Shown: positions 9,963-64,000 of the stretch, in pieces
Layout: each line of letters begins with the position of its first letter
How positions within the stretch are numbered: the stretch's first letter is position 1
Sequence record: MF402939
DNA from: Escherichia phage OSYSP
Strand: one strand, 5' to 3'
DNA: 64,000 bases
Position numbers and translations under genes: made by a program
Notes under the pieces: model-generated
Told to the model about the DNA's origin: nothing
What the model saw: only the letters and a program-made list of their open reading frames with translations
Database searches by the model: none

Positions 9963-10384
9963 TATCTAGTTACCCCATCACTGATAAATACTTTACCCTC
10001 CATTATACGAAAAGAACTAATAGCTGATCCTATGACGTCTCGTGTCATAATTATATCATAGTATCCTGCAAAACGTTGGCGAGGGTTATACTTATCTCTC
10101 TCTTTGGTAGCTTTTTCGCCAATATTATCTACTGCCTCTACAGGTAAACTTATAGCTATAGCACCTTGAGCAGCATCAGTAATTTTAGTAGTAAAAGATG
10201 CCAAAGTTTCCGCATTCTCATCAAGCCCGGCCTTTATAGTACCCCTTAGGGAATACCCTGTTAAGTTAACAGGGGTATTTGTAGGTGGATAAGTACTATC
10301 ATCAACATCTAAGAATTGCATCATTAGACCATAAGGTACTTTCTCATCTATCACTAAGTCTATAACTCTATTTTCAGTACTCAT
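9962..10384 (-). CDS. Tail collar-like protein (T5 p132-like)
   Basis: 140 aa, same length and position as T5 p132. Confidence 0.55.
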
Positions 10385-10390
10385 TATTTA

Positions 10391-12463
10391 TTACCTTATA
10401 TGGATATACCCACTATTTAGGTCTATCTTCATCTTGTAGTATGCCTCAGGATTTCCTGATAACGCAGCGTTCCTATCATAAATGATGTTAACACCGATCT
10501 GAGATAAGAAAGCATTTCCTGCTACAATTTTATCTGCCGTCACCGTCCCGTTAACAATCATGTTTCCGTGGAGAACCATTGCAGGGTTAACCCAACCAGA
10601 CCCGTTCCATTGCCTTGTAAATGCTGATTGTGGGGCATTACTGTTAAATTCAGTTAATACATCATATTTAACTGGAGGAGAACCGAAGTTACTTTGAAAG
10701 AAGGAATTAGCTTGTCCATCATCCCAACCACCTAAACCTGCTATACCTACAGAGTACATCCCAGGACCACGTTGTCCATCATGCCCTATAGTACCTTCAG
10801 TACCACTCCACTGAACCACATCTGACCAGCTAGTACCCTCTAATAACCTATTAGTAACTGGATCAAGTGTACCCGTAGTCGCATAGATATTTTGTGTCAT
10901 ATCTGTACGGTTAGGTGGAGTTTTTGACCAACCAGGAGGTGGATAATCTTGTTCTAGTGGTTTAGCAGGTAGAGATGTTGCTAACTTATAAACAAATACT
11001 GTCTGTTTACCTTGTAAACCAGTTTCAATATCTACGTCACCATTTGGTGTCCCAATTACTACACCACTAGAGATACGCAAGGTAGTACCATCATAACGTA
11101 TCCATTGTGTAGCGTTACCAATGTCTAATTTAGCTTTGGCAGAGGTATTATCCATACCCATCCAAATACCGGAGTTATTATCCCCCCAAGATTTACCTTG
11201 AGTGTAAATTGCTGGGTTATCCTTACCAGATAAGTTAGTCATAATAAAGTTCGCAGCATTAATATCTCTAGTAATTACTTTACCATCAACGTTAACAACA
11301 CGGTTTATAGGGTCGAAAGAAATAGGTGCTTTTCCTTCTTCATCCAGTAGACCAATGTTAATAGCACCAGTAGCTGCGTCGATTAAGAATGTCTGTCTCC
11401 AGATTTCTCCATCTTTCATGCTACCCTTAATAAAGGCATAATTAACGTCAATACCTGTCTCATTGACAAAGCTATTGTCTAGAGGAGTATCTTCATTCAA
11501 TATAAATGTTACAGGAGCTGATTCTGTTATATCTTGCTTATTTGGTCCCCAGGCAATTGATGATACCTTAAAAGTATGCTCAACTTTCCATGGGAATGAT
11601 ATAATCGTTGCAGCTCTAGCAGCCCCAACGTTTATCTTTTGAGCTTTATCCCAGCCAGTCTTAGCGTATTCTTCAGAGTTTATATAAGTAACCAGAAATT
11701 CACGGACATTAGCACCCGCACCACGTTCCCAGTCCCACTCTATTCTGACATCATATCGTTCCTTACCATCTGCAATTCGTGCAGCTTTAAAGGCAATGTT
11801 AGTAGGTGCAGTAGGTGGTACAAAATTATAAGCTACAGTGAAAACGCTAGGATATTCATAATAACCAGATGAGTCAACTGTAACACCATCTGGCATCGTA
11901 ACTTGACCAGATATTCTGATCTTATAGTCGCCAACGGGAACACCACCAAATTTGATAGTAGGTCCCAGCGCGCCTATATAGTATTTAACCCATTCACTAT
12001 CTTCTGATGCAGTACTTTTTAATTCAATAGTGCAGTAACTAGCTTCACCAGTAGTCTCTACAACAACTATTGGAGCACCAACACCAACGTCAACGGGTTC
12101 TGATTCAGATCTTGCTGCAGTAATTATTGGCTTTTCCTTTGTTCTAAAGTTAGTTTCATTAGAGAGGTTTATACCAATTTTTGCATTTAAAAGTTCTGAG
12201 TCGATAATTGAATCATAGAAAGCCCCCTGAACCTGGTAGGTGGTTGAGGGGGTTAAATTATTAATCATTACGAAGAAAGTATCTATACCGGTATAATCAC
12301 GTCTATCTATACTTTCTCCTATTTTTAACCAAAAAGATCTACCAATAACATCATAATCAGTATAAATGGAGTGCTGGACATAAGCCAAAGTATATCCAGT
12401 CATTATACTATTTAAGACCATTTTGGCTGGTGCATTATTTGAAATCATTAAATGGATGCCCAC
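10391..12463 (-). CDS. Baseplate/tail tip protein (T5 pb4-like)
   Basis: 690 aa; position and size match T5 pb4; overlaps upstream gene by 16 nt. Confidence 0.65.
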   Translation of the reverse strand: MGIHLMISNNAPAKMVLNSIMTGYTLAYVQHSIYTDYDVIGRSFWLKIGESIDRRDYTGIDTFFVMINNLTPSTTYQVQGAFYDSIIDSELLNAKIGINLSNETNFRTKEKPIITAARSESEPVDVGVGAPIVVVETTGEASYCTIELKSTASEDSEWVKYYIGALGPTIKFGGVPVGDYKIRISGQVTMPDGVTVDSSGYYEYPSVFTVAYNFVPPTAPTNIAFKAARIADGKERYDVRIEWDWERGAGANVREFLVTYINSEEYAKTGWDKAQKINVGAARAATIISFPWKVEHTFKVSSIAWGPNKQDITESAPVTFILNEDTPLDNSFVNETGIDVNYAFIKGSMKDGEIWRQTFLIDAATGAINIGLLDEEGKAPISFDPINRVVNVDGKVITRDINAANFIMTNLSGKDNPAIYTQGKSWGDNNSGIWMGMDNTSAKAKLDIGNATQWIRYDGTTLRISSGVVIGTPNGDVDIETGLQGKQTVFVYKLATSLPAKPLEQDYPPPGWSKTPPNRTDMTQNIYATTGTLDPVTNRLLEGTSWSDVVQWSGTEGTIGHDGQRGPGMYSVGIAGLGGWDDGQANSFFQSNFGSPPVKYDVLTEFNSNAPQSAFTRQWNGSGWVNPAMVLHGNMIVNGTVTADKIVAGNAFLSQIGVNIIYDRNAALSGNPEAYYKMKIDLNSGYIHIR

Positions 12464-24770: not shown

Positions 24771-26147
24771 TTAAGATGCAGCGTAAGCACCAGATACAAC
24801 GCCATTTGCAAAGTAACGTTGCAGGTTAACACGCTGAGTAACGTAGTATGCGTCACGCTGTTTACCAGCTTGGCGCTCACGTTCAACAGTAACAGCACGC
24901 TGGCGTGGCATTACGAAGTTATCTTTATAAACAATAACTGCGAACTCTGCGGAAGTAGCTTTAGCTGGGAAGTATTCTGAAACTACAACCGGCAGACCAT
25001 AAATACGACCAACCTGACCCTGCAGTTTAACAGCATCATTACCAACTTGGGCAACATCCTGCCATTCTTCATCTTCCAGCAGATCGTAGTAAGCATCCAT
25101 AGATACAATCAGTACCAGTTTGGACAGTTTCAGACCATGGCGGCCCAGTTTACGACGCAGTTTAGAGATAGTTTTAGCAGTTACCAGTACGGAACCATCA
25201 GCTTTAGCTTCAGTAATAACTTTAGCACTATCTTCACTAGCAAGAGTCAGCAGACCTTTCGGCTTACCGGAACCATCACCAGTCATGAAGGCTTCTTCAA
25301 TAGAAACAGCGTGTGCTTCAATCAGACGCTTACGAAGCAGTGGCAGCAGGGAGAAGATTGCATCTTCTTCAGTTTCATCAGTAATGAAGGATTTAGCAGC
25401 CAGTTTGTAAGTACTGAAGTGGATCTCTTTAAGAGCTCCTTTAACTTCCTCACCAGTAGTTGTATCGGTACCATAAGTAGAAGCAGCAACCCAAGTAGCT
25501 TTACCAGCATCCGGTTCAACCAGCATAGTAAGAATCTTACTGGACATCGGCAGTTCTTCGAACAGTGCGCCAACTACCAGCTCTTTCTGCAGGTCACGGA
25601 TAATACGCTGAGAGAAAATAGTTTCATAGCTTTCACTAGAAACTTCTACAGAAGAAGACTGATTCACTGCTTTCAGGTGTCTCTGACCATGCTCGGTCTC
25701 GAATACGCCTTTTTCCATTACATAAGATAACAGAACCAGTTTTTCAACTTCATCTTCAAAGTTTTCCTGAGTACCGTACAGTGCTTTAGCAACACTATCA
25801 CCAACGAAGGAACGACCTTCACGAGCTGTTAGCAGAGATTTGATTTCGTCTTGAAGACCGACAATAGTTTCCTGTTGTTTTTCTACAGTTTGTGCAAACA
25901 GTTCTGCGCTCTTCTTAGATTTCTCATCCAGAGACTTAACCAGATCCAGAGCCTCTTCCAGACGCTTACGGTCTTCACCAACAGCTTTAGAAACCAGGTC
26001 ATTCATACGAGCCAGTTCTTTTTCTTCCTGCTCTTTACGCATACGTTCAGCTTCCTGAGCTTTCTGAGCAGCGGTCAGACCTTCCAGAGATTTAGCCAGA
26101 TCACCCAGACCAAGTTCTTCTTTCAGCTTATTAATATCAATAGTCAT
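24771..26147 (-). CDS. Major capsid protein precursor (T5 pb8-like) with N-terminal scaffolding delta domain
   Basis: 458 aa as in T5 pb8; N-terminal 150 aa is a charged coiled coil; followed by HK97-fold-like body. Confidence 0.85.
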   Translation of the reverse strand: MTIDINKLKEELGLGDLAKSLEGLTAAQKAQEAERMRKEQEEKELARMNDLVSKAVGEDRKRLEEALDLVKSLDEKSKKSAELFAQTVEKQQETIVGLQDEIKSLLTAREGRSFVGDSVAKALYGTQENFEDEVEKLVLLSYVMEKGVFETEHGQRHLKAVNQSSSVEVSSESYETIFSQRIIRDLQKELVVGALFEELPMSSKILTMLVEPDAGKATWVAASTYGTDTTTGEEVKGALKEIHFSTYKLAAKSFITDETEEDAIFSLLPLLRKRLIEAHAVSIEEAFMTGDGSGKPKGLLTLASEDSAKVITEAKADGSVLVTAKTISKLRRKLGRHGLKLSKLVLIVSMDAYYDLLEDEEWQDVAQVGNDAVKLQGQVGRIYGLPVVVSEYFPAKATSAEFAVIVYKDNFVMPRQRAVTVERERQAGKQRDAYYVTQRVNLQRYFANGVVSGAYAAS

Positions 26148-32742: not shown

Positions 32743-33009
32743 ATGAAAAAGTTTGTGATTGCACTAGTTGCCGCAGTTATGTTGTCTGGTTGTGCACCTG
32801 CCCCCAAACCATTTTGTACGGGATTTGTAAAATCTTTTGGCGGTGCGGGAGAGGAGCATTACGGCCTCAAGGTTCAAAAAGTTCGTATTAAGGGAGATCG
32901 CTTTCCAGTAGTACAGCTCCGTACTAAGTTTGGGTGGTGGGATCTCAGTCAGTTTGACCTTAAATACGGTGATTGTAAATTTAAACTAGAGCAATCTAAC
33001 TACCTGTAA
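32743..33009 (+). CDS. llp: Lytic-conversion lipoprotein Llp-like (receptor-blocking, superinfection exclusion)
   Basis: Signal peptide plus lipobox LSGC; 88 aa; divergent neighbour of the receptor-binding protein gene. Confidence 0.75.
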   Translation: MKKFVIALVAAVMLSGCAPAPKPFCTGFVKSFGGAGEEHYGLKVQKVRIKGDRFPVVQLRTKFGWWDLSQFDLKYGDCKFKLEQSNYL

Positions 33010-33122
33010 TTAGTATAAAGCAAAAAGACATCCAAGTAAACTAAATTTTTTATTTCTTGGACGGTATACTGGCAGAAACCACTATATAAGAAAAGTAGAA
33101 GTCCTTCTAGGAAGTCGCAAGC

Positions 33123-33314
33123 ATGGTTGGTTATGCACAAACTATAAAATATTTTAAATACCACACTTATAGGAGCATGAAAGATATGTCAAACAAAAGA
33201 AAGAGTAGGCGCGGAGAAGTGTACGATAGTTGGATTAATAGTTTTGGATTCGGAACTATCCTATTCTTTATTTTCGTAGGTTTTTGGTTAGCAGCTATGG
33301 CGGGGTGGATTTAA
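33123..33314 (+). CDS. Small membrane protein (63 aa)
   Basis: C-terminal hydrophobic helix ILFFIFVGFWLAAMAGWI; AGGAAG RBS; first gene of a four-gene overlapping operon. Confidence 0.5.
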   Translation: MVGYAQTIKYFKYHTYRSMKDMSNKRKSRRGEVYDSWINSFGFGTILFFIFVGFWLAAMAGWI

Positions 33315-33421
33315 TGGAATGGGTAATTATTGCGTTGCTAGGGATTGTGATTATTGGGCAATGTATTTTAGATAATCACTTAGCTAGAATTGAAACTTTA
33401 CTAACGGAGAAACGTAAATGA
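33314..33421 (+). CDS. Small membrane protein (35 aa)
   Basis: ATG overlaps previous stop (TAATG); hydrophobic N-terminus WVIIALLGIVIIG; not in the ORF track because under 60 aa. Confidence 0.4.
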   Translation: MEWVIIALLGIVIIGQCILDNHLARIETLLTEKRK

Positions 33422-33612
33422 TGGAAGTAGTAGCTACACTAATAGTAATACTAGTCTGGGCAACTTTCATTGTTTCTTATAACGCGTATGTTCGCCTAAA
33501 AACTCTAGAGGCCCAGGTAAAGCAGCAACAATTTGCACTAGAAAAATTAGTAGAGCTTCAACGCTGTGATAGTACCCGTATTCTGCAAATTGAGAGGGAA
33601 TTAGATGTTTAG
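33418..33612 (+). CDS. Small membrane protein (64 aa)
   Basis: ATG overlaps previous stop (ATGA); N-terminal TM helix followed by coiled-coil segment. Confidence 0.5.
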   Translation: MMEVVATLIVILVWATFIVSYNAYVRLKTLEAQVKQQQFALEKLVELQRCDSTRILQIERELDV

Positions 33613-33850
33613 TATTATAATTGCTTTTATTATCGGGATACTCACGGGAGTTTTCGGAATGACTGCGGCAATCAACAAGCATCGTAAATATATTGCGGAA
33701 GTATCGCGGGAGATTGCGGAAAGGGAGCGGAAGTTTGATGAGAAACGTGCGGAGTTCGAACGAGAGTGGTCGGACGGTTCTCGGGCGTCGCGGAAGAGAT
33801 TCCGTGAGTTCAGACCAGAATACAGGTTTGATGACCCTTCTATGCGCTAA
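33605..33850 (+). CDS. Small membrane protein with charged C-terminal tail (81 aa)
   Basis: GAGAGGG RBS; N-terminal TM helix IIIAFIIGILTGVFGM; Arg/Glu-rich C-terminus. Confidence 0.5.
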   Translation: MFSIIIAFIIGILTGVFGMTAAINKHRKYIAEVSREIAERERKFDEKRAEFEREWSDGSRASRKRFREFRPEYRFDDPSMR

Positions 33851-34002
33851 TTTGACTTTTGCCAATTTCTTTGGATTACGTACGCGTGGGTGTGTCCAGT
33901 GGCCCCCCAGATGAGAATGAGTCTCATTACCGCCTGGTACTTAGCAGGCTAATAGTCCCGGCATGTTATCATTACACACCGGGACTATTTCAACTTTAAT
34001 TA

Positions 34003-34737
34003 CTACGCAACTTTTAATTTCTCAATATATTGTTGCGGGCTGCAACTATATTCTGCGCGTTCTTCTTCGGTCATACCTTCCCAACATAATTGCAGGCGGT
34101 CGGCTAGGAACTGATAATCATTATCATCCTCAAGAGATTCATCGATAAAGGTTTCACCTATCAATGTAACCCCAATCGATAGAATATCGTTAACGGCTTG
34201 TGCGTCCAGCGTTTTAAATCCGTATGATGCCGCCGCTGATAGCACGCCTTTATGATCATCAATCATCGTGAAATCAGCGTTCGGATATAATTGTTTAAAT
34301 AACTCAAAGTAATGGCTTTTATAAATAGCGTCTTTGCTGTGGTATATTTCGCTAACTTTATCAGCCTCAAAATATTTGTGTAGTGTATCGCGGGAAAATA
34401 CACGGATATTACTATCCCCACGCCCTCGCAATCCTTGTTTACGCAAATAATAATAATCCGACTTGCTCATCAGTCGAGCGGTGCAAATAATGTTTAATGT
34501 ATTTGCGTCATTCATGCACTGGCGCATATATGTAACAAGGGGCAATAAAGTATCTTGCATTATTAAATCATGTTTGCAGGCTTCATTTTTATACTTATTT
34601 AAATCTAAATTGCCCTCGCTATCAAAGCAAGGCGCTACACGATGGAAAGAATTAATGATAGTGCCGTCCAGATCCCAAATCATGACGCGGGAAATATGCG
34701 GGAAATTACGGGTAATATTCATTTTAACTTGATTCAT
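34003..34737 (-). CDS. dmp: HAD-family 5'-deoxynucleotidase (T5 Dmp-like)
   Basis: HAD motif I IWDLDGTI near N-terminus; start chosen at MNQVK (GGAGAA RBS 9 nt upstream) giving 244 aa; the track ORF extends to 34779. Confidence 0.65.
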   Translation of the reverse strand: MNQVKMNITRNFPHISRVMIWDLDGTIINSFHRVAPCFDSEGNLDLNKYKNEACKHDLIMQDTLLPLVTYMRQCMNDANTLNIICTARLMSKSDYYYLRKQGLRGRGDSNIRVFSRDTLHKYFEADKVSEIYHSKDAIYKSHYFELFKQLYPNADFTMIDDHKGVLSAAASYGFKTLDAQAVNDILSIGVTLIGETFIDESLEDDNDYQFLADRLQLCWEGMTEEERAEYSCSPQQYIEKLKVA

Positions 34738-34817
34738 TTTGTTACGTTCTCCATTAAAGGGATTTAGTTTATCCAGCATTGCCCGCTATTTATCAGCGGG
34801 CAATAATAAATCAACTA

Positions 34818-35210
34818 TTAAAGACCATAAGCCAACGCATCAGCGATAAAACTAATATCTTCACCTGATACGCTGGAACGAATCCCCGCACAAGTATATA
34901 CTTTTGCGCTGATCAATTGATCATCGAGGCAAGCGGGGCAAGGCGCGACAACTGCAAAGGCTAGGCCGGATTTTACGGCGTCGATGATAATCGTTTCTTG
35001 TTTCACAGTATCAACATAAACACCTTTTGCTTTAATATGGCTGGTTAGTTTACCTTGCATATATGCAAAGGTAGTAACCTGCAAAGCGTCATTAAAATCT
35101 AATAGGTCATCAATAACGTGCCCCGCCTCGACGTGGTAACGTTCACCATTAGAATAAACCAGAACAATTGAGGACTGAGCGCGATCGAATGGAATATTTT
35201 GCTTTTTCAT
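34818..35210 (-). CDS. Hypothetical pre-early protein (130 aa)
   Basis: GGAG RBS; CPAC motif; no family recognised. Confidence 0.5.
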   Translation of the reverse strand: MKKQNIPFDRAQSSIVLVYSNGERYHVEAGHVIDDLLDFNDALQVTTFAYMQGKLTSHIKAKGVYVDTVKQETIIIDAVKSGLAFAVVAPCPACLDDQLISAKVYTCAGIRSSVSGEDISFIADALAYGL

Positions 35211-57548: not shown

Positions 57549-58045
57549 CAGCCTGTACTCGCAAACTCACCGTGGAGTTCTTTGAGTTTGGTATCTCGCC
57601 ATTCTATGGCCTCTTCCAAACTCTTAAGTGTTTTCGAAACTTGCTTACCATGTTTAGTGATTCTTACTTGGTAAGTCCCATTTGTTTTTCTATGAATATT
57701 TTTAACGCCTAAATGGTTATCGCTTCTTACTTTTTGATTACAAGCGTTATCAGATCTTGTAGCAGGTCTTAGATTCTCAAACCTATCATTAGTTGAGTCT
57801 TTATCCTTATGATCAACTATTTCTGGCCATTCTCCAGTATGCCATGCATAGATTAATCTATGTGTACCTATAGCTAGAGAACCATTATATAGCTCAACTA
57901 CTCTATGTCCTGTACTTTGTCTAGATCCTGCTACTGTTCCGGCGAATATCTTATTAAAGTGTTCGTCCCCTTCCCTGGGTTTCCAGATAAGATTACCATC
58001 ATCTCGGTAATCGAACATTCTTCTTAGCTCTTCCTTACTGATCAT
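57548..58045 (-). CDS. HNH homing endonuclease with AP2-like DNA-binding domain
   Basis: HRLIYAWHTGEWPEIVDHKD...NLRPATRSDN (HNH core) followed by NGTYQVRITKHGKQV (AP2-like). Confidence 0.65.
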   Translation of the reverse strand: MISKEELRRMFDYRDDGNLIWKPREGDEHFNKIFAGTVAGSRQSTGHRVVELYNGSLAIGTHRLIYAWHTGEWPEIVDHKDKDSTNDRFENLRPATRSDNACNQKVRSDNHLGVKNIHRKTNGTYQVRITKHGKQVSKTLKSLEEAIEWRDTKLKELHGEFASTG

Positions 58046-58740
58046 CTTTTCATATTCCTAAAAGAAGTAACAGTATCAAATCCATGTGCGGCTAAGCGAT
58101 CCTTATCGGAAGTGGTAATAGTATCTGGTTCACCAGTTCCTAATACGCCCCAGATATATTGCTCGATCATCTGGTGTAAACGGTATAAGTTACTTTCAAT
58201 TTCCTGCCACGGAATACCTGACTGATGGAAACGAATGTTAGTCTGAATCACGAAGTTACGAACATCATCGTTATCGTTCTTTTTAATACCTTTCACATAT
58301 GCAATCGGTACACGCAGTTCGGATAAGATACGTTCTGCTTTAGGTTTTGCTTCAGCGAGCAAATCACGCATTGTTTCACGAACATCTCCGCGACTCTTAT
58401 CCATTAAGTAAGAGCGAGCATGCAATCCCATCTCTTCCATTTTATCGAACATAGTGTCGAGGTTGAACGTTTTGAAGCTAAATGCTGGATGCCAGCAGTA
58501 CAGCTCGTGTAACCAGTAAACTTCACCTGCAACAAATAGTGGGTTTACAAAATATTCGAAATCACCACGGAAAGATAGCGAACCATCACGAAATACCTGA
58601 CGACTATGCACGATGTTCTTTTCTGCATCATCAGTTACTTTAACCAGTAGCTCTTCAGTTTTACGCTCCCAAACACGATCTGCATCAAATAAACTGTTCT
58701 GCAAATCATATACATCGGCGAATTTAGAAATGATCCTCAT
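58042..58740 (-). CDS. Hypothetical early protein (232 aa)
   Basis: ORF in early array. Confidence 0.5.
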   Translation of the reverse strand: MRIISKFADVYDLQNSLFDADRVWERKTEELLVKVTDDAEKNIVHSRQVFRDGSLSFRGDFEYFVNPLFVAGEVYWLHELYCWHPAFSFKTFNLDTMFDKMEEMGLHARSYLMDKSRGDVRETMRDLLAEAKPKAERILSELRVPIAYVKGIKKNDNDDVRNFVIQTNIRFHQSGIPWQEIESNLYRLHQMIEQYIWGVLGTGEPDTITTSDKDRLAAHGFDTVTSFRNMKR

Positions 58741-58894
58741 ATTTAATCCTCTTGCCTCAATCTATAAACATATTATACAAAAGTTTGGGCATCTAAGCAA
58801 CTAAAATTTTATTATAAAAATAGCCCAGTCGCAAAAGTGCAGGCTGGGCTTTGTCATTATTTGCTTTTGCTAGTAAGCTGACTTAGTGTCAATC

Positions 58895-59275
58895 TTATGT
58901 AATATTAGTTTCTCTAGCTTTGCGTAGTACCCCTGCATTTCTCCACAATTTGATGTCAGCAACTGTTTCTTTATACGGAGCAATGGTAGAACCAATTGGG
59001 CCAGCAACTAATAGTCCAAAGAACCCTACAATACGCATGTAGAACAAGCATTCTTTGGCTGTCATATTATTTACTGCTTTTTTCTGCTTTTCATCTTTAA
59101 ACTTCTGTTCTTGATCATCAATACGTAGATATTTAACAAACCATTCAGCAGAATGTTCGTCCAAATGTCTAATAATAGCTATCGCATATCCAGCACCGAT
59201 TAAAAACCAAGTTGCAACAAGAATTAGTAATATAGTCATATTATCTCCAGTTAGGGCTAGCAGCCACCTCACCAC
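58895..59275 (-). CDS. Membrane protein (126 aa)
   Basis: Two TM helices. Confidence 0.5.
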   Translation of the reverse strand: MVRWLLALTGDNMTILLILVATWFLIGAGYAIAIIRHLDEHSAEWFVKYLRIDDQEQKFKDEKQKKAVNNMTAKECLFYMRIVGFFGLLVAGPIGSTIAPYKETVADIKLWRNAGVLRKARETNIT

Positions 59276-59349
59276 TTACCGCACTAAGGGGCACGACTCC
59301 CTTATCCGTAACAGTTGCAGGTGACGCAACTCGGTCCTACGCGAGTTCT

Positions 59350-59634
59350 TTAAGTATTCTGCATTTCAGCTTTAAATTTTTTCATATTACGAGTTTTTCT
59401 ATAAAAGAAAAACACAGATGTTGGGCCTAGAAGAATATCCACAATAAATATCACAGATCTAGCACATCTGAGTAATGTTTTATCATCAAGAGGTGGCAGA
59501 TCTAACGGTCGAGTTTTATGTATAACGTATAATATTACATCTTTATTCTTAGAAATATAAAGATCATCAACCAAGCTGTAAATAGCAACCACAGATCCAA
59601 TGACAAACCAAAGAGCAAATGGAGAGATAATCAT
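59350..59634 (-). CDS. Small membrane protein (94 aa)
   Basis: N-terminal TM helix. Confidence 0.45.
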   Translation of the reverse strand: MIISPFALWFVIGSVVAIYSLVDDLYISKNKDVILYVIHKTRPLDLPPLDDKTLLRCARSVIFIVDILLGPTSVFFFYRKTRNMKKFKAEMQNT

Positions 59635-59927
59635 TTCAGATCCTTTTCATTAATTAGAATATTAGTAAACAGTGGAGTAACTCCTAGACTCATAGTAGGT
59701 CCAAACGTATTCATGGCTACCCATAGCTGCATAGTGATCATCCCATCTTTAATCTCTGGATCTTTATATTCTTCGATACGTTTCTTGGCAAAAGCAACTA
59801 TATCTGGATTATTTTTATTTTCCTGAATATAGTCATGCCAAAACTGAGTATTCTCACTACGTAGGAATGTTAAAACATCCTTAGTTGCTGGAATCTGCAC
59901 TGTGCTGTTGATGTTTAGTCTTTTCAC
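59631..59927 (-). CDS. Hypothetical early protein (98 aa)
   Basis: ATGA overlap with the downstream gene. Confidence 0.45.
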   Translation of the reverse strand: MKRLNINSTVQIPATKDVLTFLRSENTQFWHDYIQENKNNPDIVAFAKKRIEEYKDPEIKDGMITMQLWVAMNTFGPTMSLGVTPLFTNILINEKDLK

Positions 59928-60300
59928 GTTCTTCTCTCCGACGTTTGCGTTCTTTTATCATATGAGCTGCTACAACTTCATGGTAGTAGTCATTAATGTT
60001 ATCTTCTGGCAAGAAATGCTTAATAGTCTCTAGCTGACAAATAACTCGATGAAGATGGTTATTTGGTAGACACAATTTTATACCTGCAACAAATCCAGAG
60101 AAGCCTGGAACACTGAACATGGGTTGGGCTTCTACTCTACCTTCAGAGTTGATATTAAGCTCAATTGAGATACCCATTTTCACGCTATAAAGCTGGCAAT
60201 ATTCTCCGTTACCAGACCTTGACCAAACAGTGAAGTCCTCATCAATTTGATCTTGAATTTCTGTAATAGCAAATTTAATTCTAGGATCTAAATTATTCAT
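59881..60300 (-). CDS. Hypothetical early protein (about 139 aa)
   Basis: Start placed at MNNLDPR to remove overlap; basic C-terminus. Confidence 0.45.
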   Translation of the reverse strand: MNNLDPRIKFAITEIQDQIDEDFTVWSRSGNGEYCQLYSVKMGISIELNINSEGRVEAQPMFSVPGFSGFVAGIKLCLPNNHLHRVICQLETIKHFLPEDNINDYYHEVVAAHMIKERKRRREEREKTKHQQHSADSSN

Positions 60301-60592
60301 CTTCACCTTCAAAGTCGCAATCATAACGACAAGTAAAAGAATCAGAACTATTAGTACGTTGAGTGGTTATTTCACCGCGTTTGCTAATAGTAACGGCTGG
60401 AGTAGAGAAGTTTTTATTAGTATATATTTCTACTTTACCATTACGTTCCTTAACATCACGCACTTTACCATATTCAGTAATGATGCCGTTCTGTTGTACC
60501 CTAACATTCCCATTTTTCATAGAAACTTTGGTAGATGCCAGAGAACCGAAACTAACTGCGGAGATCATCAGTGCAATAATAAACTTATTCAT
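60293..60592 (-). CDS. Secreted small protein with C-terminal Cys pair and acidic tail
   Basis: Start at MNKFIIALMISAVSFGSLA (signal peptide); ends CRYDCDFEGEDE. Confidence 0.45.
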   Translation of the reverse strand: MNKFIIALMISAVSFGSLASTKVSMKNGNVRVQQNGIITEYGKVRDVKERNGKVEIYTNKNFSTPAVTISKRGEITTQRTNSSDSFTCRYDCDFEGEDE

Positions 60593-60866
60593 CTTCGTCC
60601 TCCCCACTACAATCACGACATACATCATAATCGTTGAGAGAACGTTCGTGAGCTTCACACCACCAAGAACAAGAATCGCAGAGGAACATTTCGGTTTTCT
60701 CCAGTGCTTGACCTAAAAGATCATCAGATTCCTCAGCAGTAATCTTCAATCCGCACACATCTGCCACACGTTCTTTAATTAAACGACCTGCTTCGTGGTA
60801 AGACATACAGGTTCCCGTAACATCATGTTCAAGAACATGAACAGCACAGTCTAGACGAGTTTTCAT
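60585..60866 (-). CDS. Cys-rich small protein with acidic tail
   Basis: CDSCSWWC ... CRDCSGEDEDE. Confidence 0.45.
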   Translation of the reverse strand: MKTRLDCAVHVLEHDVTGTCMSYHEAGRLIKERVADVCGLKITAEESDDLLGQALEKTEMFLCDSCSWWCEAHERSLNDYDVCRDCSGEDEDE

Positions 60867-60942
60867 TTCAAACCTCTCTCATCAATTTATAGATATATTA
60901 TAGCAAGAAAAGAGAGGTTTAGCAAATGAATTATTTCAGAAT

Positions 60943-61290
60943 TTAGTCATAGCACCACCATAATCCACGCTTACGCATGTCATGATCGCGATTATAGTCG
61001 TAATTTTCTGGATCTTTCATCACGCGGTGGAGTTCTTGACGATTCCCTTGACGAACCATTTTATTAGAATGCCACTTAACATTCTTACTAATAGAATTCC
61101 AGTTATAACCATCCTTTTTCTCATTACGAATGGTTGCTTCCTTCATTTCTTTTTTGATGTCGTCCCAAGATTTGGCATAAATAACACGAATCCAGTAGCC
61201 ATTTTCTTTGATGAAAGAATATTCTTGAGAGAATTGTTCTTTAGACTTCCACCACTGATCACCAGATTGTTTACGATAAGTACGGCTCAT
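60943..61290 (-). CDS. Hypothetical early protein (115 aa)
   Basis: Trp/Lys-rich ORF. Confidence 0.45.
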   Translation of the reverse strand: MSRTYRKQSGDQWWKSKEQFSQEYSFIKENGYWIRVIYAKSWDDIKKEMKEATIRNEKKDGYNWNSISKNVKWHSNKMVRQGNRQELHRVMKDPENYDYNRDHDMRKRGLWWCYD

Positions 61291-61367
61291 ATTACCTCCA
61301 TTAAGTCTTTTGAATTAACCTAATGTGGGTGAATTTTATTATACATAAATTATTTACCTGTATATAG

Positions 61368-61404
61368 AAAAACCCCAGACTACTTATTCAATAGCTGGGG
61401 TTTG
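61368..61404. terminator. Bidirectional rho-independent terminator
   Basis: AAAAACCCCAG-loop-CTGGGGTTTGTT. Confidence 0.6.
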
Positions 61405-61411
61405 TTATTAA

Positions 61412-61726
61412 TCACAGATCGGGGCGTTCATCTTCGAAACAGCCTGAGCTAATTCCTTCTCCGAATCCTACAAAGCCATCAAATTCATCATTTGAAATAT
61501 CCGTAATCATTGCTTCCATTTTCCTAATTTCCGAGGTTTTCATACCTGCTTTACTATTCTTAAAGTGTTTGCGAGGGTTCCCACACATCCAACAAGAACA
61601 GATGCAAGGAGTAGTAGTGATAATACCTAACCGTTTAGGGCTTTCTTCATGTGGGAAGACTGTCCAATACTTCTTGCGGTTGTTCTTCACACGTTGCCGA
61701 TGGTGACGTCTTAATGCTCGATCCAC
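61412..61726 (-). CDS. Cys-rich hypothetical protein (104 aa)
   Basis: PCICSCWMCGNPRKH motif; basic N-terminus. Confidence 0.45.
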   Translation of the reverse strand: MDRALRRHHRQRVKNNRKKYWTVFPHEESPKRLGIITTTPCICSCWMCGNPRKHFKNSKAGMKTSEIRKMEAMITDISNDEFDGFVGFGEGISSGCFEDERPDL

Positions 61727-61807
61727 ACATTTCTCCTAAAACTTGAGAGATAAATGGAGTTTGCTCGACTACCTTACGTAGTTCGTAGAAACCGTACCCA
61801 AACCCCA

Positions 61808-62176
61808 TTACATCGCCTGAGTAAATGTACGACTAATAACATCGTTCTGCTGTTCACGCGTCAGTGCGTTAAAACGTACAGCATACCCTGAAACACGGAT
61901 AGTTAATTGAGGGTATTTTTCAGGATGTTTCTGTGCATCCAAAAGCTGATCACGACTTAACACATTGACATTTAGGTGTTGACCCCCTTCAATTTGAGGG
62001 GCGACTTCCATCTTGACTTCACGGAAGGATTCGGGGTCAAAATGGGGTGTGATACCTTCTAGATCCTCAACCAGAACTTTCTGTTTAAGTTCGCCATTTT
62101 TAGAGTACAGTTGAATAATCTGATTATCATGAACAAGATTAATTACGCCAGACTTAAGATTTTGATATGCTTTCAT
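61808..62176 (-). CDS. Autonomous glycyl radical cofactor (GrcA/YfiD-like)
   Basis: C-terminal [11 protein letters not shown]...[24 protein letters not shown] closely matches the glycyl-radical motif region of E. coli GrcA (RVSGYAVRF). Confidence 0.8.
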
Positions 62177-62225
62177 TAGCTCTCCCCGATGTTAGAAATT
62201 GGCTCAGCTCTTTATTCTTTATAGT

Positions 62226-62420
62226 TTATAGTTTACCACGATATACAGAAACTGTCTTACCAGTTTGGTTCATAACGTATGCTACTTCATCTTCTTTTAA
62301 GAAGATTGCTTGATCTATTCCAGAAATAGCTATGCTTTTATTTCTGGGATTAAACCCTACGCTTTTACCAACATGAATCTGCTCACCACCATCAGTGGAT
62401 ATTATTTTAACGGTTAACAT
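62226..62420 (-). CDS. Hypothetical small protein (64 aa)
   Basis: ORF in early array. Confidence 0.4.
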   Translation of the reverse strand: MLTVKIISTDGGEQIHVGKSVGFNPRNKSIAISGIDQAIFLKEDEVAYVMNQTGKTVSVYRGKL

Positions 62421-62457
62421 AATTGCTCCTATATTTAGCTATCTCTAGCTCTTTTAA

Positions 62458-62534
62458 TGGTAGTTAGTAGTGGATTTGAACCACTGTAGTCGCTCCGTAT
62501 GAAGGAGGTGCATAACCACTCTGCCAACTAACTA
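62458..62534 (-). tRNA. tRNA, anticodon CAU (Met or Ile2)
   Basis: 7-bp acceptor stem TAGTTAG/CTAACTA, T-loop GGTTCAAATCC, anticodon loop TTCATAC, encoded CCA. Confidence 0.75.
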
Positions 62535-62629
62535 TTATGTTTTACTAAGCTAAGTAAGTATTCTTTATACTCTTTAGACCAATTAGCTTTTTTAAACTTT
62601 CCTGGACGCATAGTCTTAATTCCTAGATT

Positions 62630-62707
62630 TGGTACTCCGGGAGGGATTTAAACCCCCGATCTCTCGGTTATCAGCCGAGTGCTTTAGATCGCTAAGCTAC
62701 CGAAGCA
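62630..62707 (-). tRNA. tRNA-Ile (anticodon GAU)
   Basis: Anticodon stem-loop CTCGG-CTGATAA-CCGAG, T-loop GGGTTTAAATCCC, 3' CCA. Confidence 0.7.
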
Positions 62708-62914
62708 TTAACATTTTACAGCAGAACGTTTGCCATTTCTAGGTGCACCTGGAAGTCGTGCACGTTCTGCCATTCTTCGCTTAATCTTTGAAATATTTTC
62801 TAGTGTTTGTTCTTCAGGCTTAATACCTGAAACACTACACCACTGATTACCATCCCATGCGGTAATGATCATAACACCATTACTCATGATCTTTTCTGTG
62901 AAAGTAATCCTCAT
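62708..62914 (-). CDS. Hypothetical small protein between tRNA genes
   Basis: Start moved to MRITFTE to abut the upstream stop; the track ORF extends to 62935. Confidence 0.35.
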   Translation of the reverse strand: MRITFTEKIMSNGVMIITAWDGNQWCSVSGIKPEEQTLENISKIKRRMAERARLPGAPRNGKRSAVKC

Positions 62915-63207
62915 TATAGCAACTCGTCTAAGCAAGAGGTATATTTAAGTTTACCATCTTTATCTACTTTAATTTCAACTTCCGCTCGTGGTACTTGACG
63001 AACTACACCATGAATCATCTTATAGTTAATAGACTTAGACGGTTCATAATCTTTTGGGAAGACTTGCTTAACCGTTACTACCTTGTACCCATCACGCGGT
63101 GTTAACACAACAACTTGATCACCTTCTTTGATTTTCCAAGAGTTAGGAAATTCATAGGTATAGCGTTGACCACCCGTTTGGAATATAACAGAAAGATAAC
63201 GTTTCAT
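62914..63207 (-). CDS. Hypothetical small protein between tRNA genes (97 aa)
   Basis: ORF in tRNA cluster. Confidence 0.4.
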   Translation of the reverse strand: MKRYLSVIFQTGGQRYTYEFPNSWKIKEGDQVVVLTPRDGYKVVTVKQVFPKDYEPSKSINYKMIHGVVRQVPRAEVEIKVDKDGKLKYTSCLDELL

Positions 63208-63280
63208 TTGGTTTCCCTCTCATTAATTTATATAAATATTATAGCAATAAATAAGAGAGAAAGCAAATGAATTTTTAAAT

Positions 63281-63355
63281 TTGGTGCTCCCACCAGGAAT
63301 CGAACCCGGTTCAGATGCTTACAAGGCAACTGCATCGCCAGCAATGCTTTAGGAG
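63281..63355 (-). tRNA. tRNA, probably Thr (anticodon UGU, tentative)
   Basis: Acceptor stem GCTCCTA/TGGGAGC, T-arm CCGGG-TTCGATT-CCTGG, anticodon loop CTTGTAA, 3' CCA. Confidence 0.65.
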
Positions 63356-63523
63356 CGATAATCCCGTTATTTCAACGGGATTTCTTTTTCAAATACAGGG
63401 GATTTATCTGACATTACTGTCATTGCCAACTGCTGAAGAAACTCGAAAGTAAAGGCAACACGTTCTTCACCAATCTCTACTTCTACACGTTTCTTTTGTT
63501 TATCAATCTTTACTTTTAGGTTG

Positions 63524-63775
63524 TCAGCCATTAGAGGGTACAGTACTGGTAGTTGGCAATACTACAGATGGAGCAACAGTGTTTAAATGCTTTCTCCAGT
63601 CTAGGTTAAATTGTTTTCGAAACTCTTCATAAGGTTCTTCTGGATAAAAGCTAAAACCTCCTTTCTCATCATTCAAGATAACAGAGCCGTCAGTTTGTTC
63701 ATATGCTCGATATGTTTCTCCAATAATGATAACTCGCTTATCAGTACTTTTATTACGAAACTCAAAAACGTGCAT
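63524..63775 (-). CDS. Hypothetical small protein between tRNA genes (83 aa)
   Basis: ORF in tRNA cluster. Confidence 0.4.
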   Translation of the reverse strand: MHVFEFRNKSTDKRVIIIGETYRAYEQTDGSVILNDEKGGFSFYPEEPYEEFRKQFNLDWRKHLNTVAPSVVLPTTSTVPSNG

Positions 63776-63791
63776 AGTGTTTCCTTAAAGT

Positions 63792-63867
63792 TGGAGCGGC
63801 TAGAGGGAATCGAACCCTACTCAGCGAGGCTTGGAAGGCCTGCGACACAACCCGTGTGCTTAACCGC
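63792..63867 (-). tRNA. tRNA, probably Gly (anticodon UCC, tentative)
   Basis: Acceptor stem GCGGTTA/TAGCCGC, T-loop GGTTCGATTCC, anticodon loop CTTCCAA. Confidence 0.6.
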
Positions 63868-63874
63868 GATTATT

Positions 63875-63950
63875 TGGCTGGAGAAGGAGGAATCGAACCT
63901 ACCATTAACGGAGTCAAAGGCCGTTGTGCTAACCATTACACTACTCTCCA
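63875..63950 (-). tRNA. tRNA, probably Gln (anticodon UUG, tentative)
   Basis: Acceptor stem TGGAGAG/TTCTCCA, T-loop GGTTCGATTCC, anticodon loop CTTTGAC, 3' CCA. Confidence 0.6.
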
Positions 63951-63956
63951 AGTATT

Positions 63957-64000
63957 TGGCTGGGATGCCACGGATCGAACGTGGGACCTTCGGAGTCAGA
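63957..64000 (-). tRNA. tRNA, 3' portion only (truncated by window end)
   Basis: TGG (CCA complement) followed by acceptor and T-arm complement CGGATCGAACGTGGGACC. Confidence 0.5.

What the first reader, a model, noticed from the sequence alone, without database searches (positions are those of the whole stretch)
61808..62176. Phage-encoded GrcA-like glycyl radical cofactor
The C-terminal 60 residues closely match the glycyl-radical motif region of E. coli GrcA/YfiD (RVSGYAVRF and flanking residues). Such a protein can act as a spare part for oxygen-damaged glycyl radical enzymes, suggesting adaptation to anaerobic or microaerobic infection in the gut.
Basis: partly seen in the sequence, partly recalled or inferred. 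Interest (0 to 1): 0.45.

Follow-up and report, generated by a model that had tools for sequence, protein, structure and literature searches.

The report
T5-type phage GrcA spare-part protein
This is the ordinary, already catalogued T5-phage copy of a small "spare part" protein (GrcA/YfiD type) that most likely lets the host's oxygen-damaged pyruvate formate-lyase work again during infection at low oxygen.

Summary
Window 61808-62176 (minus strand) is an intact 122-aa gene with a Shine-Dalgarno site. Its last 62 residues are 77-82% identical to E. coli GrcA and to the C-termini of PflB and TdcE. They contain RVSG97YAVRF.

The window is a T5-like phage (Tequintavirus). The gene is the orthologue of T5.056 and occurs at 80% identity or more in about 434 sequenced phages. 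Several records already call it "autonomous glycyl radical cofactor". A homologue in T4 (vs.6/Y06I) was shown in 2001 to rescue oxygen-cleaved pyruvate formate-lyase.

The T5-type gene is under strong purifying selection (dN/dS 0.07). It is an old phage lineage, not a recent capture from the host. It has no cysteine, and neither the window nor the whole genome of a 95%-identical relative encodes an activase. It must therefore use host PflA and a host formate-lyase core.

That relative carries nrdD, as do about 390 other phage records. In several other phage families grcA lies beside nrdD/nrdG. This fits a role in keeping up the supply of formate, the reductant of the anaerobic ribonucleotide reductase.

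Verdict: real, correctly interpreted, already known in kind, and never tested biochemically for the T5 type. Interest is low.

The parts
61808..62176 (-). grcA-like CDS (122 aa plus TAA stop), orthologue of T5.056
   Evidence: ORF. 97% identical to T5.056. PHROG 1209 matches full length, E 5e-48. All 29 T5-like alleles compared are intact and 122 aa, with dN/dS 0.069.
61811..61996 (-). C-terminal glycyl radical domain (residues 61-122), equivalent to PflB 698-759
   Evidence: Pfam PF01228. PDB 6owr and 1h16 alignments. Foldseek of the AF2 model hits YfiD and PFL. dN/dS 0.017. 38 invariant columns across 58 phage and bacterial GrcAs.
61871..61897 (-). RVSGYAVRF motif (residues 94-102); the G97 codon GGG is at 61886-61888
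   Evidence: Sequence read. Position computed. Invariant in alignments A1 and A3.
61997..62176 (-). Divergent N-terminal half (residues 1-60)
   Evidence: dN/dS 0.11, so it is constrained. BLASTP finds no match to the T4 N-terminus, and only residues 51-61 match E. coli GrcA. hhalign to jumbo/T4-like phage N-termini gives probability 69%, E 4e-5, over residues 31-61. AF2 predicts 4-5 beta strands at pLDDT 70-82, but it does the same for E. coli-type GrcA.
62181..62187 (-). Shine-Dalgarno sequence GGGGAGA, 4 nt before the ATG
   Evidence: Read directly from the sequence.
63212..63286 (-). Probable early promoter of the transcription unit (equivalent of T5 promoter P11)
   Evidence: 97% identical over 75 nt to the feature annotated 'promoter P11' in NC_005859. 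It lies upstream of a 97-aa ORF, tRNA-Ile, tRNA-Met, a 64-aa ORF, grcA and a 104-aa ORF, all on the minus strand.
61368..61400 (-). Rho-independent terminator closing the unit, downstream of the 104-aa ORF
   Evidence: 100% identical over 33 nt to the terminator annotated in the T5 record.

Best explanation
[quoted passage not shown] It is transcribed early, together with phage tRNAs, from a P11-type promoter.

Proposed mechanism:
1. The host activase PflA (PFL-AE, radical SAM) abstracts a hydrogen from G97 in the RVSGYAV loop.
2. The C-terminal domain copies PflB residues 698-759. It docks into a host formate-lyase core (PflB, probably also TdcE) whose own glycyl radical domain has been cleaved by oxygen at Ser733-Gly734.
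3. The G97 radical is passed to Cys419 of that core, and pyruvate -> acetyl-CoA + formate resumes.

The phage thereby keeps fermentative ATP and acetyl-CoA production going when an anaerobically grown host meets oxygen. It probably also keeps up the formate that its own class III ribonucleotide reductase NrdD uses as reductant.

Shown here: gene integrity, domain identity, motif, selection, absence of cysteine and of any phage activase, and presence of nrdD in relatives.
Inferred: activation by PflA, docking to PflB, and the link to NrdD.
For: Domain and motif:
- Matches.
- 45 of the 48 residues shared by E. coli GrcA and PflB are kept.
- 82% identity to the TdcE C-terminus.

Protein properties:
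- It has no cysteine, so it cannot be catalytic alone.
- Purifying selection acts on both halves: dN/dS 0.017 C-terminal, 0.11 N-terminal, across 28 distinct alleles, all intact.
- It is an old phage-adapted gene. Nucleotide identity to host grcA and pflB is 70%, third-position identity is 40-44%, and GC is 0.40 against 0.388 for the window.

Partners:
- No PflA or NrdG homologue is found in the window or anywhere in the 95%-identical JLBYU40 genome.
- The E. coli host encodes pflA and pflB.

Precedent: T4 Y06I and E. coli YfiD restore activity to O2-cleaved PFL after activation by PFL-AE (PMC8683613; PMC12338860).

Link to NrdD:
- JLBYU40 has nrdD, 54% identical to the formate-type E. coli NrdD. 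About 390 phage records carry that NrdD at 80% identity or more, against about 434 for the GrcA-like protein.
- grcA is adjacent to nrdD and/or nrdG in Aeromonas phage BUCT695, in jumbo enterobacterial phages (order nrdD-grcA-nrdG), and in two 225-235 kb IMG/VR viral contigs (order nrdA-nrdB-nrdD-nrdG-grcA).
- Formate is the product of PFL and the reductant of the studied class III RNRs (PMC4390871).

Transcription: the early promoter and terminator are conserved with those annotated in T5.
Against: - No experiment exists for any T5-type protein. Only YfiD and Y06I are validated (PMC8683613).
- The validated T4 protein has a C-terminal domain almost identical to E. coli GrcA (97% aa, 96% nt), so it is a weaker precedent for the T5-type domain, which differs from GrcA at 14 of 62 positions.
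- In YfiD the N-terminal 60 residues help binding to cleaved PFL and activation. Here only about residues 31-61 are detectably homologous to other GrcAs.
- The protein scores below NCBIfam's curated GrcA cut-off: 120.6 against 170. The validated T4 Y06I also falls below it, at 153.3.
- In T5-like phages grcA and nrdD are about 25 kb apart, so the NrdD link rests on co-occurrence and on other phage families.
Confidence: 0.8

Rival explanations
1. The protein belongs directly to the phage's class III ribonucleotide reductase system. It would be a spare glycyl radical domain for oxygen-cleaved NrdD, or a substrate of NrdG, rather than a partner of host PFL.
For: grcA sits between nrdD and an nrdG-like radical-SAM gene, overlapping the latter by 4 nt, in jumbo Salmonella phages. 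It lies directly after nrdD or nrdG in Aeromonas phage BUCT695 and in two 225-235 kb viral contigs. T5-like phages carry both nrdD and grcA. Reviews note that spare parts for other glycyl radical enzymes are conceivable (PMC8683613).
Against: The domain is 79-82% identical to PflB and TdcE, but BLASTP shows no alignment to the phage's own NrdD around its RRVCGYLG glycine (E 4, elsewhere in the protein). A domain that co-evolved with NrdD would have no reason to keep 45 of 48 PFL/GrcA-shared residues. The T4 homologue works on PFL with PFL-AE. T5-like phages have no nrdG.
Confidence: 0.06
2. It is a decoy or modulator rather than a repair part. It would soak up host PflA activity or occupy PFL to redirect pyruvate flux, or it would act on undamaged or inactive full-length PFL rather than on cleaved enzyme.
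For: GrcA can restore activity to an inactive full-length PflB(G734A) in vivo (PMC12338860 and the work cited there), so cleavage is not a prerequisite. The N-terminal half is lineage-specific yet constrained, with dN/dS 0.11, which would allow an altered partner or altered regulation.
Against: All residues of the radical loop and its flanks are invariant, as expected for productive insertion and radical transfer. Inhibition would not need a perfect radical site. Linkage to nrdD fits production of formate, not its suppression.
Confidence: 0.08
3. It is a functionless remnant of a captured host pflB, tdcE or grcA 3' end.
For: The gene resembles only the last ~60 codons of a host gene, and GenBank labels for it are inconsistent.
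Against: dN/dS is 0.069 at dS 0.38. All 29 alleles are intact and the same length. The gene has its own Shine-Dalgarno site and start codon. It is conserved in about 434 T5-like and about 1000 T4-like records. Third codon positions are saturated relative to host genes.
Confidence: 0.01

Closest known systems
Bacteriophage T5 gene T5.056 (YP_006884.1, 'putative acetyltransferase-related protein', InterPro IPR001150) and its orthologues in Tequintavirus/Epseptimavirus
   Same: Same gene: 122 aa, 97% identical, in the same position downstream of tRNA-Ile and tRNA-Met, within the P11 early unit with the same terminator. Some records already annotate it as 'autonomous glycyl radical cofactor', for example JLBYU40, slur09 and SP33.
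   Different: A few N-terminal substitutions. The window also has an extra 64-aa ORF between tRNA-Met and the gene that T5 lacks.
Bacteriophage T4 vs.6 / Y06I (experimentally validated spare part for PFL)
   Same: A small stand-alone phage protein (120 aa) that starts MKAYQ, belongs to PHROG 1209, and has the same invariant [10 protein letters not shown]...[15 protein letters not shown] core.
   Different: About 53% identity overall. BLASTP does not align the N-terminal halves. T4's C-terminal 62 codons are 96% nucleotide-identical to E. coli grcA, a recent exchange with the host. The T5-type domain is 70% nucleotide-identical with saturated third positions. T4 also encodes nrdG; the T5-like relative JLBYU40 does not.
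E. coli GrcA/YfiD (PDB 6owr; NCBIfam TIGR04365)
   Same: Same architecture: an N-terminal ~60 residues followed by a glycyl radical domain. Identity is 77% over the last 62 residues. G97 corresponds to G102. AF2 models of the two have similar layouts.
   Different: The N-terminus matches only at residues 51-61. The score of 120.6 is below the curated cut-off of 170. Several C-terminal residues are PflB- or TdcE-like ([17 protein letters not shown]) rather than GrcA-like.
C-terminal glycyl radical domain of E. coli PflB (residues 698-759) and TdcE
   Same: 79% (PflB) and 82% (TdcE) identity over 62 residues, including the whole radical loop.
   Different: There is no catalytic barrel and no Cys418/Cys419. 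The protein is 122 aa and has no cysteine. The GenBank labels 'pyruvate formate-lyase' and '2-ketobutyrate formate-lyase' are therefore misnomers.

Membership tests
GrcA/YfiD/Y06I autonomous glycyl radical cofactors | Small stand-alone protein (~120-130 aa) with its own translation signals, not the 3' end of a larger gene | tested here: met
   122-aa ORF with ATG, a GGGGAGA Shine-Dalgarno site and a TAA stop. No PFL core is encoded upstream.
GrcA/YfiD/Y06I autonomous glycyl radical cofactors | C-terminal domain that duplicates PFL residues ~698-759, including the RVSGYAV radical loop and the preceding [10 protein letters not shown] strand | tested here: met
   PF01228 at 66.8 bits. 79% identity to PflB 699-760. 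The motif is invariant. Foldseek hits 6owr and 2pfl.
GrcA/YfiD/Y06I autonomous glycyl radical cofactors | No catalytic cysteine pair, so it depends on a partner core | tested here: met
   Zero cysteines in the 122 residues.
GrcA/YfiD/Y06I autonomous glycyl radical cofactors | N-terminal ~60-residue region homologous to that of YfiD, where it aids binding to cleaved PFL and activation | tested here: inconclusive
   BLASTP matches only residues 51-61 to E. coli GrcA. hhalign gives 69% probability to phage N-termini over residues 31-61, and those phage N-termini match bacterial N-termini at 96%. Residues 1-30 are unassignable apart from the MKAYQ start shared with T4.
GrcA/YfiD/Y06I autonomous glycyl radical cofactors | Score above the NCBIfam TIGR04365 equivalog cut-off (170 bits) | tested here: not met
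   120.6 bits. The validated T4 Y06I also fails at 153.3, while E. coli GrcA scores 234. The cut-off therefore defines bacterial GrcA rather than the function.
GrcA/YfiD/Y06I autonomous glycyl radical cofactors | Radical installation by PFL-AE and restoration of activity to O2-cleaved PFL | not testable with these tools
   Needs EPR and enzyme assays. Shown only for YfiD and Y06I (PMC8683613).
Short GrcA2 / GrcA3 (NCBIfam NF008341, NF038360; 78-80 aa) | Score above the curated cut-offs, and a protein consisting of the radical domain only | tested here: not met
   90.7 against 145 bits and 116.4 against 158 bits. The window protein also has a conserved 60-residue N-terminal extension.
Pyruvate / 2-ketobutyrate formate-lyase (PflB, TdcE), as many GenBank records label it | ~760-aa ten-stranded barrel with the Cys418-Cys419 active site | tested here: not met
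   TIGR01255 scores 86 bits against a cut-off of 994, matching only model positions 683-744. A tblastn query with the PflB core finds nothing else in the window.
Class III ribonucleotide reductase NrdD glycyl radical domain | RRVCGYLG loop following a Zn-ribbon (CxxC...CxxC) | tested here: not met
   No alignment to the JLBYU40 or E. coli NrdD C-terminus, and no cysteines.

The most novel reading that the evidence does not exclude
Phage GrcA genes may not be general metabolic helpers. They may instead be a dedicated part of the phage anaerobic dNTP module. By keeping host PFL alive through oxygen pulses, they would secure formate, the reductant of the phage's own NrdD.

The support is recurrent synteny in unrelated phage families: nrdD-grcA-nrdG, nrdD-grcA, and nrdA-nrdB-nrdD-nrdG-grcA. 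In T5-like phages both glycyl radical proteins, NrdD and GrcA, would run entirely on host activases.

A more radical version is that the protein is activated by NrdG or serves NrdD directly. The evidence here does not exclude this, but I rate it much less likely.
Probability: 0.3. Interest if true: 0.4.

Novelty: already known. Interest (0 to 1): 0.15.

Why it matters
The finding shows that T5-like coliphages and Salmonella phages, like T4, carry equipment for infecting fermenting hosts that meet oxygen intermittently, as in the gut. That has some relevance for phage therapy and for reading "auxiliary metabolic genes".

It adds no new kind of system. The family, its mechanism and a phage example were described in 2001, and this exact gene is in hundreds of GenBank records.

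The modest added value:
- The T5-type protein is an old, divergent and untested lineage.
- Many database labels for it are wrong ("pyruvate formate-lyase", "ribonucleotide reductase subunit").
- The synteny of phage grcA with nrdD/nrdG suggests a testable link between PFL repair and formate-dependent dNTP synthesis.

Tried and rejected
- Consensus sigma-70 and terminator scan of 61000-64000. It found nothing useful on the minus strand. The relevant promoter and terminator were recovered only by identity to the annotated T5 features.
- BLASTP of the N-terminal half against the T4 and E. coli N-termini gave no match and an 11-residue match respectively. Profile comparison was needed.
- The AF2 model predicted a folded beta N-domain, which looked like a difference from the NMR-disordered YfiD N-terminus. 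The control model of an E. coli-type GrcA (P0083) gave the same kind of prediction. I rejected this as a distinguishing feature.
- Foldseek against the PDB found no significant match for the N-terminal half.
- I looked for a phage-encoded activase and found no PflA or NrdG homologue in the window or the JLBYU40 genome.
- I looked for nrdD in the window and found none. It lies beyond the window end in relatives.
- Literature searches for the T5-type protein ('T5-like' with 'pyruvate formate'; 'T5.056'; GrcA with NrdD and phage) returned nothing relevant in the held library.
- Wei et al. 2014 (PMC4246965) is not held. I therefore could not check the NrdD subtype motifs against the paper. The formate type is inferred from 54% identity to E. 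coli NrdD.
- I tried to check whether a T5 deletion mutant lacks the gene. I recalled the accession (AY509815) wrongly: it is a 7.7-kb record. I abandoned this.
- Pfam scan of nine neighbouring ORFs returned only DUF7295, DUF7293 and one sub-threshold MazE-like hit.
- Rfam scan of 58000-64000 returned only the four tRNAs.

Full report
**1. What is in the sequence**

The coordinates given correspond exactly to one ORF on the minus strand, 61808..62176: ATG start, 122 codons, TAA stop. A GGGGAGA Shine-Dalgarno sequence lies 4 nt upstream of the ATG.

The product matches:
- Pfam Gly_radical (PF01228): E 2.9e-18, 66.8 bits against a gathering score of 22.2.
- The NMR structure entry of E. coli GrcA/YfiD (6owr): E 4e-30, residues 48-121.
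- The last 62 residues of pyruvate formate-lyase (1h16, residues 698-759): E 4e-27.

The radical glycine is G97, codon 61886-61888.

Over the last 62 residues the protein is identical at 48 positions to E. coli GrcA, 49 to PflB and 51 to TdcE. At the 48 positions where GrcA and PflB agree with each other it keeps 45. The three exceptions are conservative (E->D, S->A, S->A), and two of them match TdcE.

**2. What the window is**

Megablast of 60000-64000 hits 466 phage records. The best are Tequintavirus/T5-like phages of E. coli and Salmonella at 93-95.5% identity.

The gene is the orthologue of T5.056 (NC_005859 27656-28024). That record annotates it as [quoted passage not shown]. The two proteins are 97% identical.

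tblastn finds the protein in 1582 phage records:
- About 434 at 80% identity or more, which are T5-like.
- About 1000 at roughly 53% over the full length. These are T4-like phages, where the gene is vs.6.

GenBank labels for the gene range from "autonomous glycyl radical cofactor" to "pyruvate formate-lyase", "2-ketobutyrate formate-lyase", "ribonucleotide reductase subunit" and "hypothetical protein".

**3. Is it a working gene?**

I compared 29 T5-like alleles (28 distinct DNA sequences) taken from the window and IMG/VR contigs. All are intact and 122 codons long.

| Region | Pooled pairwise Nei-Gojobori dN/dS |
|---|---|
| Whole gene | 0.069 (dS 0.38) |
| C-terminal domain | 0.017 |
| N-terminal 60 residues | 0.11 |

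(All.) Both halves are therefore under purifying selection.

The gene is not a recent capture from the host. Its C-terminal 186 nt are only 70% identical to E. coli grcA or pflB, with third-position identity of 40-44%. Its GC content (0.40) matches the window (0.388).

By contrast, the same segment of T4 vs.6 is 96% nucleotide-identical to E. coli grcA, with third positions 95% identical. T4 evidently exchanged this segment with its host recently.

**4. Anatomy**

The protein has no cysteine. It cannot carry out thiyl-radical chemistry itself and needs a partner core.

*C-terminal domain.* 38 columns are invariant across 58 phage and bacterial GrcAs. They include EGG.HLN.NV and [26 protein letters not shown]. 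An AlphaFold2 model (mean pLDDT 73.8) places this domain on YfiD and PFL in Foldseek.

*N-terminal half.* This is the divergent part.
- BLASTP does not align it with the T4 N-terminus, and aligns only residues 51-61 with E. coli GrcA.
- Profile-profile comparison links residues 31-61 to the N-termini of jumbo/T4-like phage GrcAs (probability 69%, E 4e-5).
- Those phage N-termini in turn match bacterial GrcA N-termini over their full length (probability 96%, E 5.5e-9).

The protein is therefore a full-length but divergent GrcA homologue.

AlphaFold predicts a small beta-sheet for residues 1-54. A control model of an E. coli-type GrcA (P0083) gives the same kind of prediction, although NMR found that region disordered in solution (PMC8683613). 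I therefore draw no functional contrast from this.

**5. Transcription context**

A 75-nt segment at 63212-63286 is 97% identical to the T5 feature annotated "promoter P11". The 33-nt terminator annotated downstream of T5.055 is 100% conserved at 61368-61400.

The gene thus lies in an early unit, all on the minus strand: P11, a 97-aa ORF, tRNA-Ile, tRNA-Met, a 64-aa ORF, grcA, a 104-aa ORF, terminator. The promoter assignment rests on the T5 record's annotation, not on an experiment here.

**6. Partners**

tblastn with E. coli PflA and NrdG finds no homologue in the window, nor in the complete genome of JLBYU40, which is 95% identical across the region.

The window has no nrdD. JLBYU40 has nrdD, 54% identical to E. 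coli NrdD, plus nrdA and nrdB. These lie about 25 kb beyond the grcA gene, which is past the end of the window. About 390 phage records carry that NrdD at 80% identity or more.

The phage NrdD C-terminus (…CPICGNH…TRRVCGYLGNPGARPF…) shows no alignment to the GrcA-like protein. The host encodes pflA and pflB.

**7. Mechanism proposed**

This follows what was established for YfiD and T4 Y06I (Wagner et al. 2001, as summarised in PMC8683613 and PMC12338860).
1. Host PflA installs a radical on G97.
2. The domain docks into an oxygen-cleaved PflB core, and probably a TdcE core.
3. The radical passes to Cys419 and pyruvate cleavage resumes.

These steps are inferred by homology. None was tested for a T5-type protein. 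PMC8683613 states that only YfiD and Y06I have been validated.

The T4 precedent is weaker than it looks, because its radical domain is essentially E. coli's own. The T5-type substitutions, however, fall almost entirely at positions where GrcA and PflB already differ from each other.

**8. A lead beyond the finding**

In other phage families the GrcA gene is physically tied to ribonucleotide reductase genes.

| Phage or contig | Arrangement |
|---|---|
| Aeromonas phage BUCT695 | nrdD, then grcA after a 10-nt gap |
| ~350-kb jumbo Salmonella phages | nrdD-grcA-nrdG, with grcA overlapping the nrdG-like radical-SAM gene by 4 nt |
| Three further jumbo contigs | nrdD and nrdG within 0.1-1.2 kb of grcA |
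| Two 225-235 kb IMG/VR viral contigs | nrdA-nrdB-nrdD-nrdG-grcA |
| A 330-kb contig | nrdD, nrdG and grcA within 4 kb |
| Vibrio phage D479 | nrdA-nrdB-grcA |

In T4-like and T5-like phages the genes are not adjacent.

Formate is both the product of PFL and the reductant of the studied class III reductases (PMC4390871). The simplest reading is that phage GrcA protects the formate supply of phage NrdD. I found no paper in the held library that makes this link for phages.

A direct role with NrdD or NrdG is a rival. The PFL-like sequence and the lack of any NrdD-like sequence argue against it.

**9. Comparison and verdict**

The gene passes the defining sequence features of the GrcA/YfiD/Y06I family: a stand-alone small protein, a PFL-type radical domain, and no catalytic cysteines.

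It fails NCBIfam's curated equivalog cut-off (120.6 against 170 bits), but so does the experimentally validated T4 protein (153.3). Homology of the N-terminus is only partly demonstrable.

It is not a formate-lyase, not an NrdD fragment, and not one of the short GrcA2/GrcA3 forms.

The finding is real and correctly interpreted. It is already known in kind and already present, sometimes correctly named, in hundreds of database records. I score interest low (0.15). The residual value lies in the untested T5-type lineage and in the link between grcA and nrdD.

Noticed in passing
L045:3183-5830; L042 (NC_070977):34470-36947; L105 and L124 around 7400-10400; L043:1656-5372; L047:1-5366: In several unrelated phage families the GrcA-like gene lies directly beside ribonucleotide reductase genes. 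The arrangements seen are nrdD-grcA-nrdG in jumbo enterobacterial phages, nrdD-grcA in Aeromonas phage BUCT695, nrdA-nrdB-nrdD-nrdG-grcA in two 225-235 kb IMG/VR viral contigs, and nrdA-nrdB-grcA in Vibrio phage D479. This suggests a functional tie between PFL repair (formate) and anaerobic dNTP synthesis.
   Followed up: partly
L005:3175-3360 (T4 vs.6) versus L006 (E. coli grcA): The last 62 codons of T4 vs.6/Y06I are 96% nucleotide-identical to E. coli K-12 grcA, with third positions 95% identical, while its N-terminal half is phage-specific. T4's gene is therefore a recent mosaic with the host gene. The only validated phage spare part thus carries essentially the host's own radical domain.
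   Followed up: partly
whole genome of JLBYU40 (L041, L001, L002, L040); window 1-64000: The T5-like phage JLBYU40 encodes two glycyl radical proteins (NrdD and GrcA) but no radical-SAM activase: tblastn finds no NrdG or PflA homologue. T4-like and jumbo phages do carry nrdG. Both T5-type proteins must therefore rely on host activases.
   Followed up: partly
window 62226-62420 (-): A 64-aa ORF with a good Shine-Dalgarno site lies between tRNA-Met and the grcA-like gene. It is present in JLBYU40 (JLBYU40_63) but absent from T5, where T5.056 directly follows tRNA-Met. It has no Pfam match.
   Followed up: no
window ~33000-35000: Judged by coordinates relative to JLBYU40 (window 60000 corresponds to record position 25965; record length 109776), the window runs from late structural genes straight into pre-early genes (A1/A2 region). 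It therefore crosses the ends of the linear T5-type genome, as in a circularised or permuted assembly with the terminal repeat collapsed.
   Followed up: no
window 60943-61290 (-) and 63367-63531 (-): Two neighbouring conserved small ORFs belong to families known only as DUF7295 (E 1e-53) and DUF7293 (E 9e-39). The 104-aa ORF at 61412-61726, co-transcribed just downstream of grcA, is cysteine-rich (CICSCWMCGNPRKH) and has no Pfam match.
   Followed up: no
GenBank records listed: Database names for this 122-aa protein are inconsistent and often wrong: 'pyruvate formate-lyase', '2-ketobutyrate formate-lyase', 'formate-lyase', 'ribonucleotide reductase subunit', 'putative acetyltransferase-related protein', 'hypothetical protein'. 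One record (Citrobacter phage YZU-L1, P0033) calls a 67-aa version that starts at the internal Met56.
   Followed up: no
models m82f402b20d43 and m284f444b9897: AlphaFold2 predicts a 4-5-stranded beta-sheet at pLDDT 70-87 for the N-terminal ~55 residues of both the T5-type protein and an E. coli-type GrcA, whereas NMR reported this region of YfiD as disordered in solution. This may be a fold adopted only on binding, or an over-confident prediction.
   Followed up: partly
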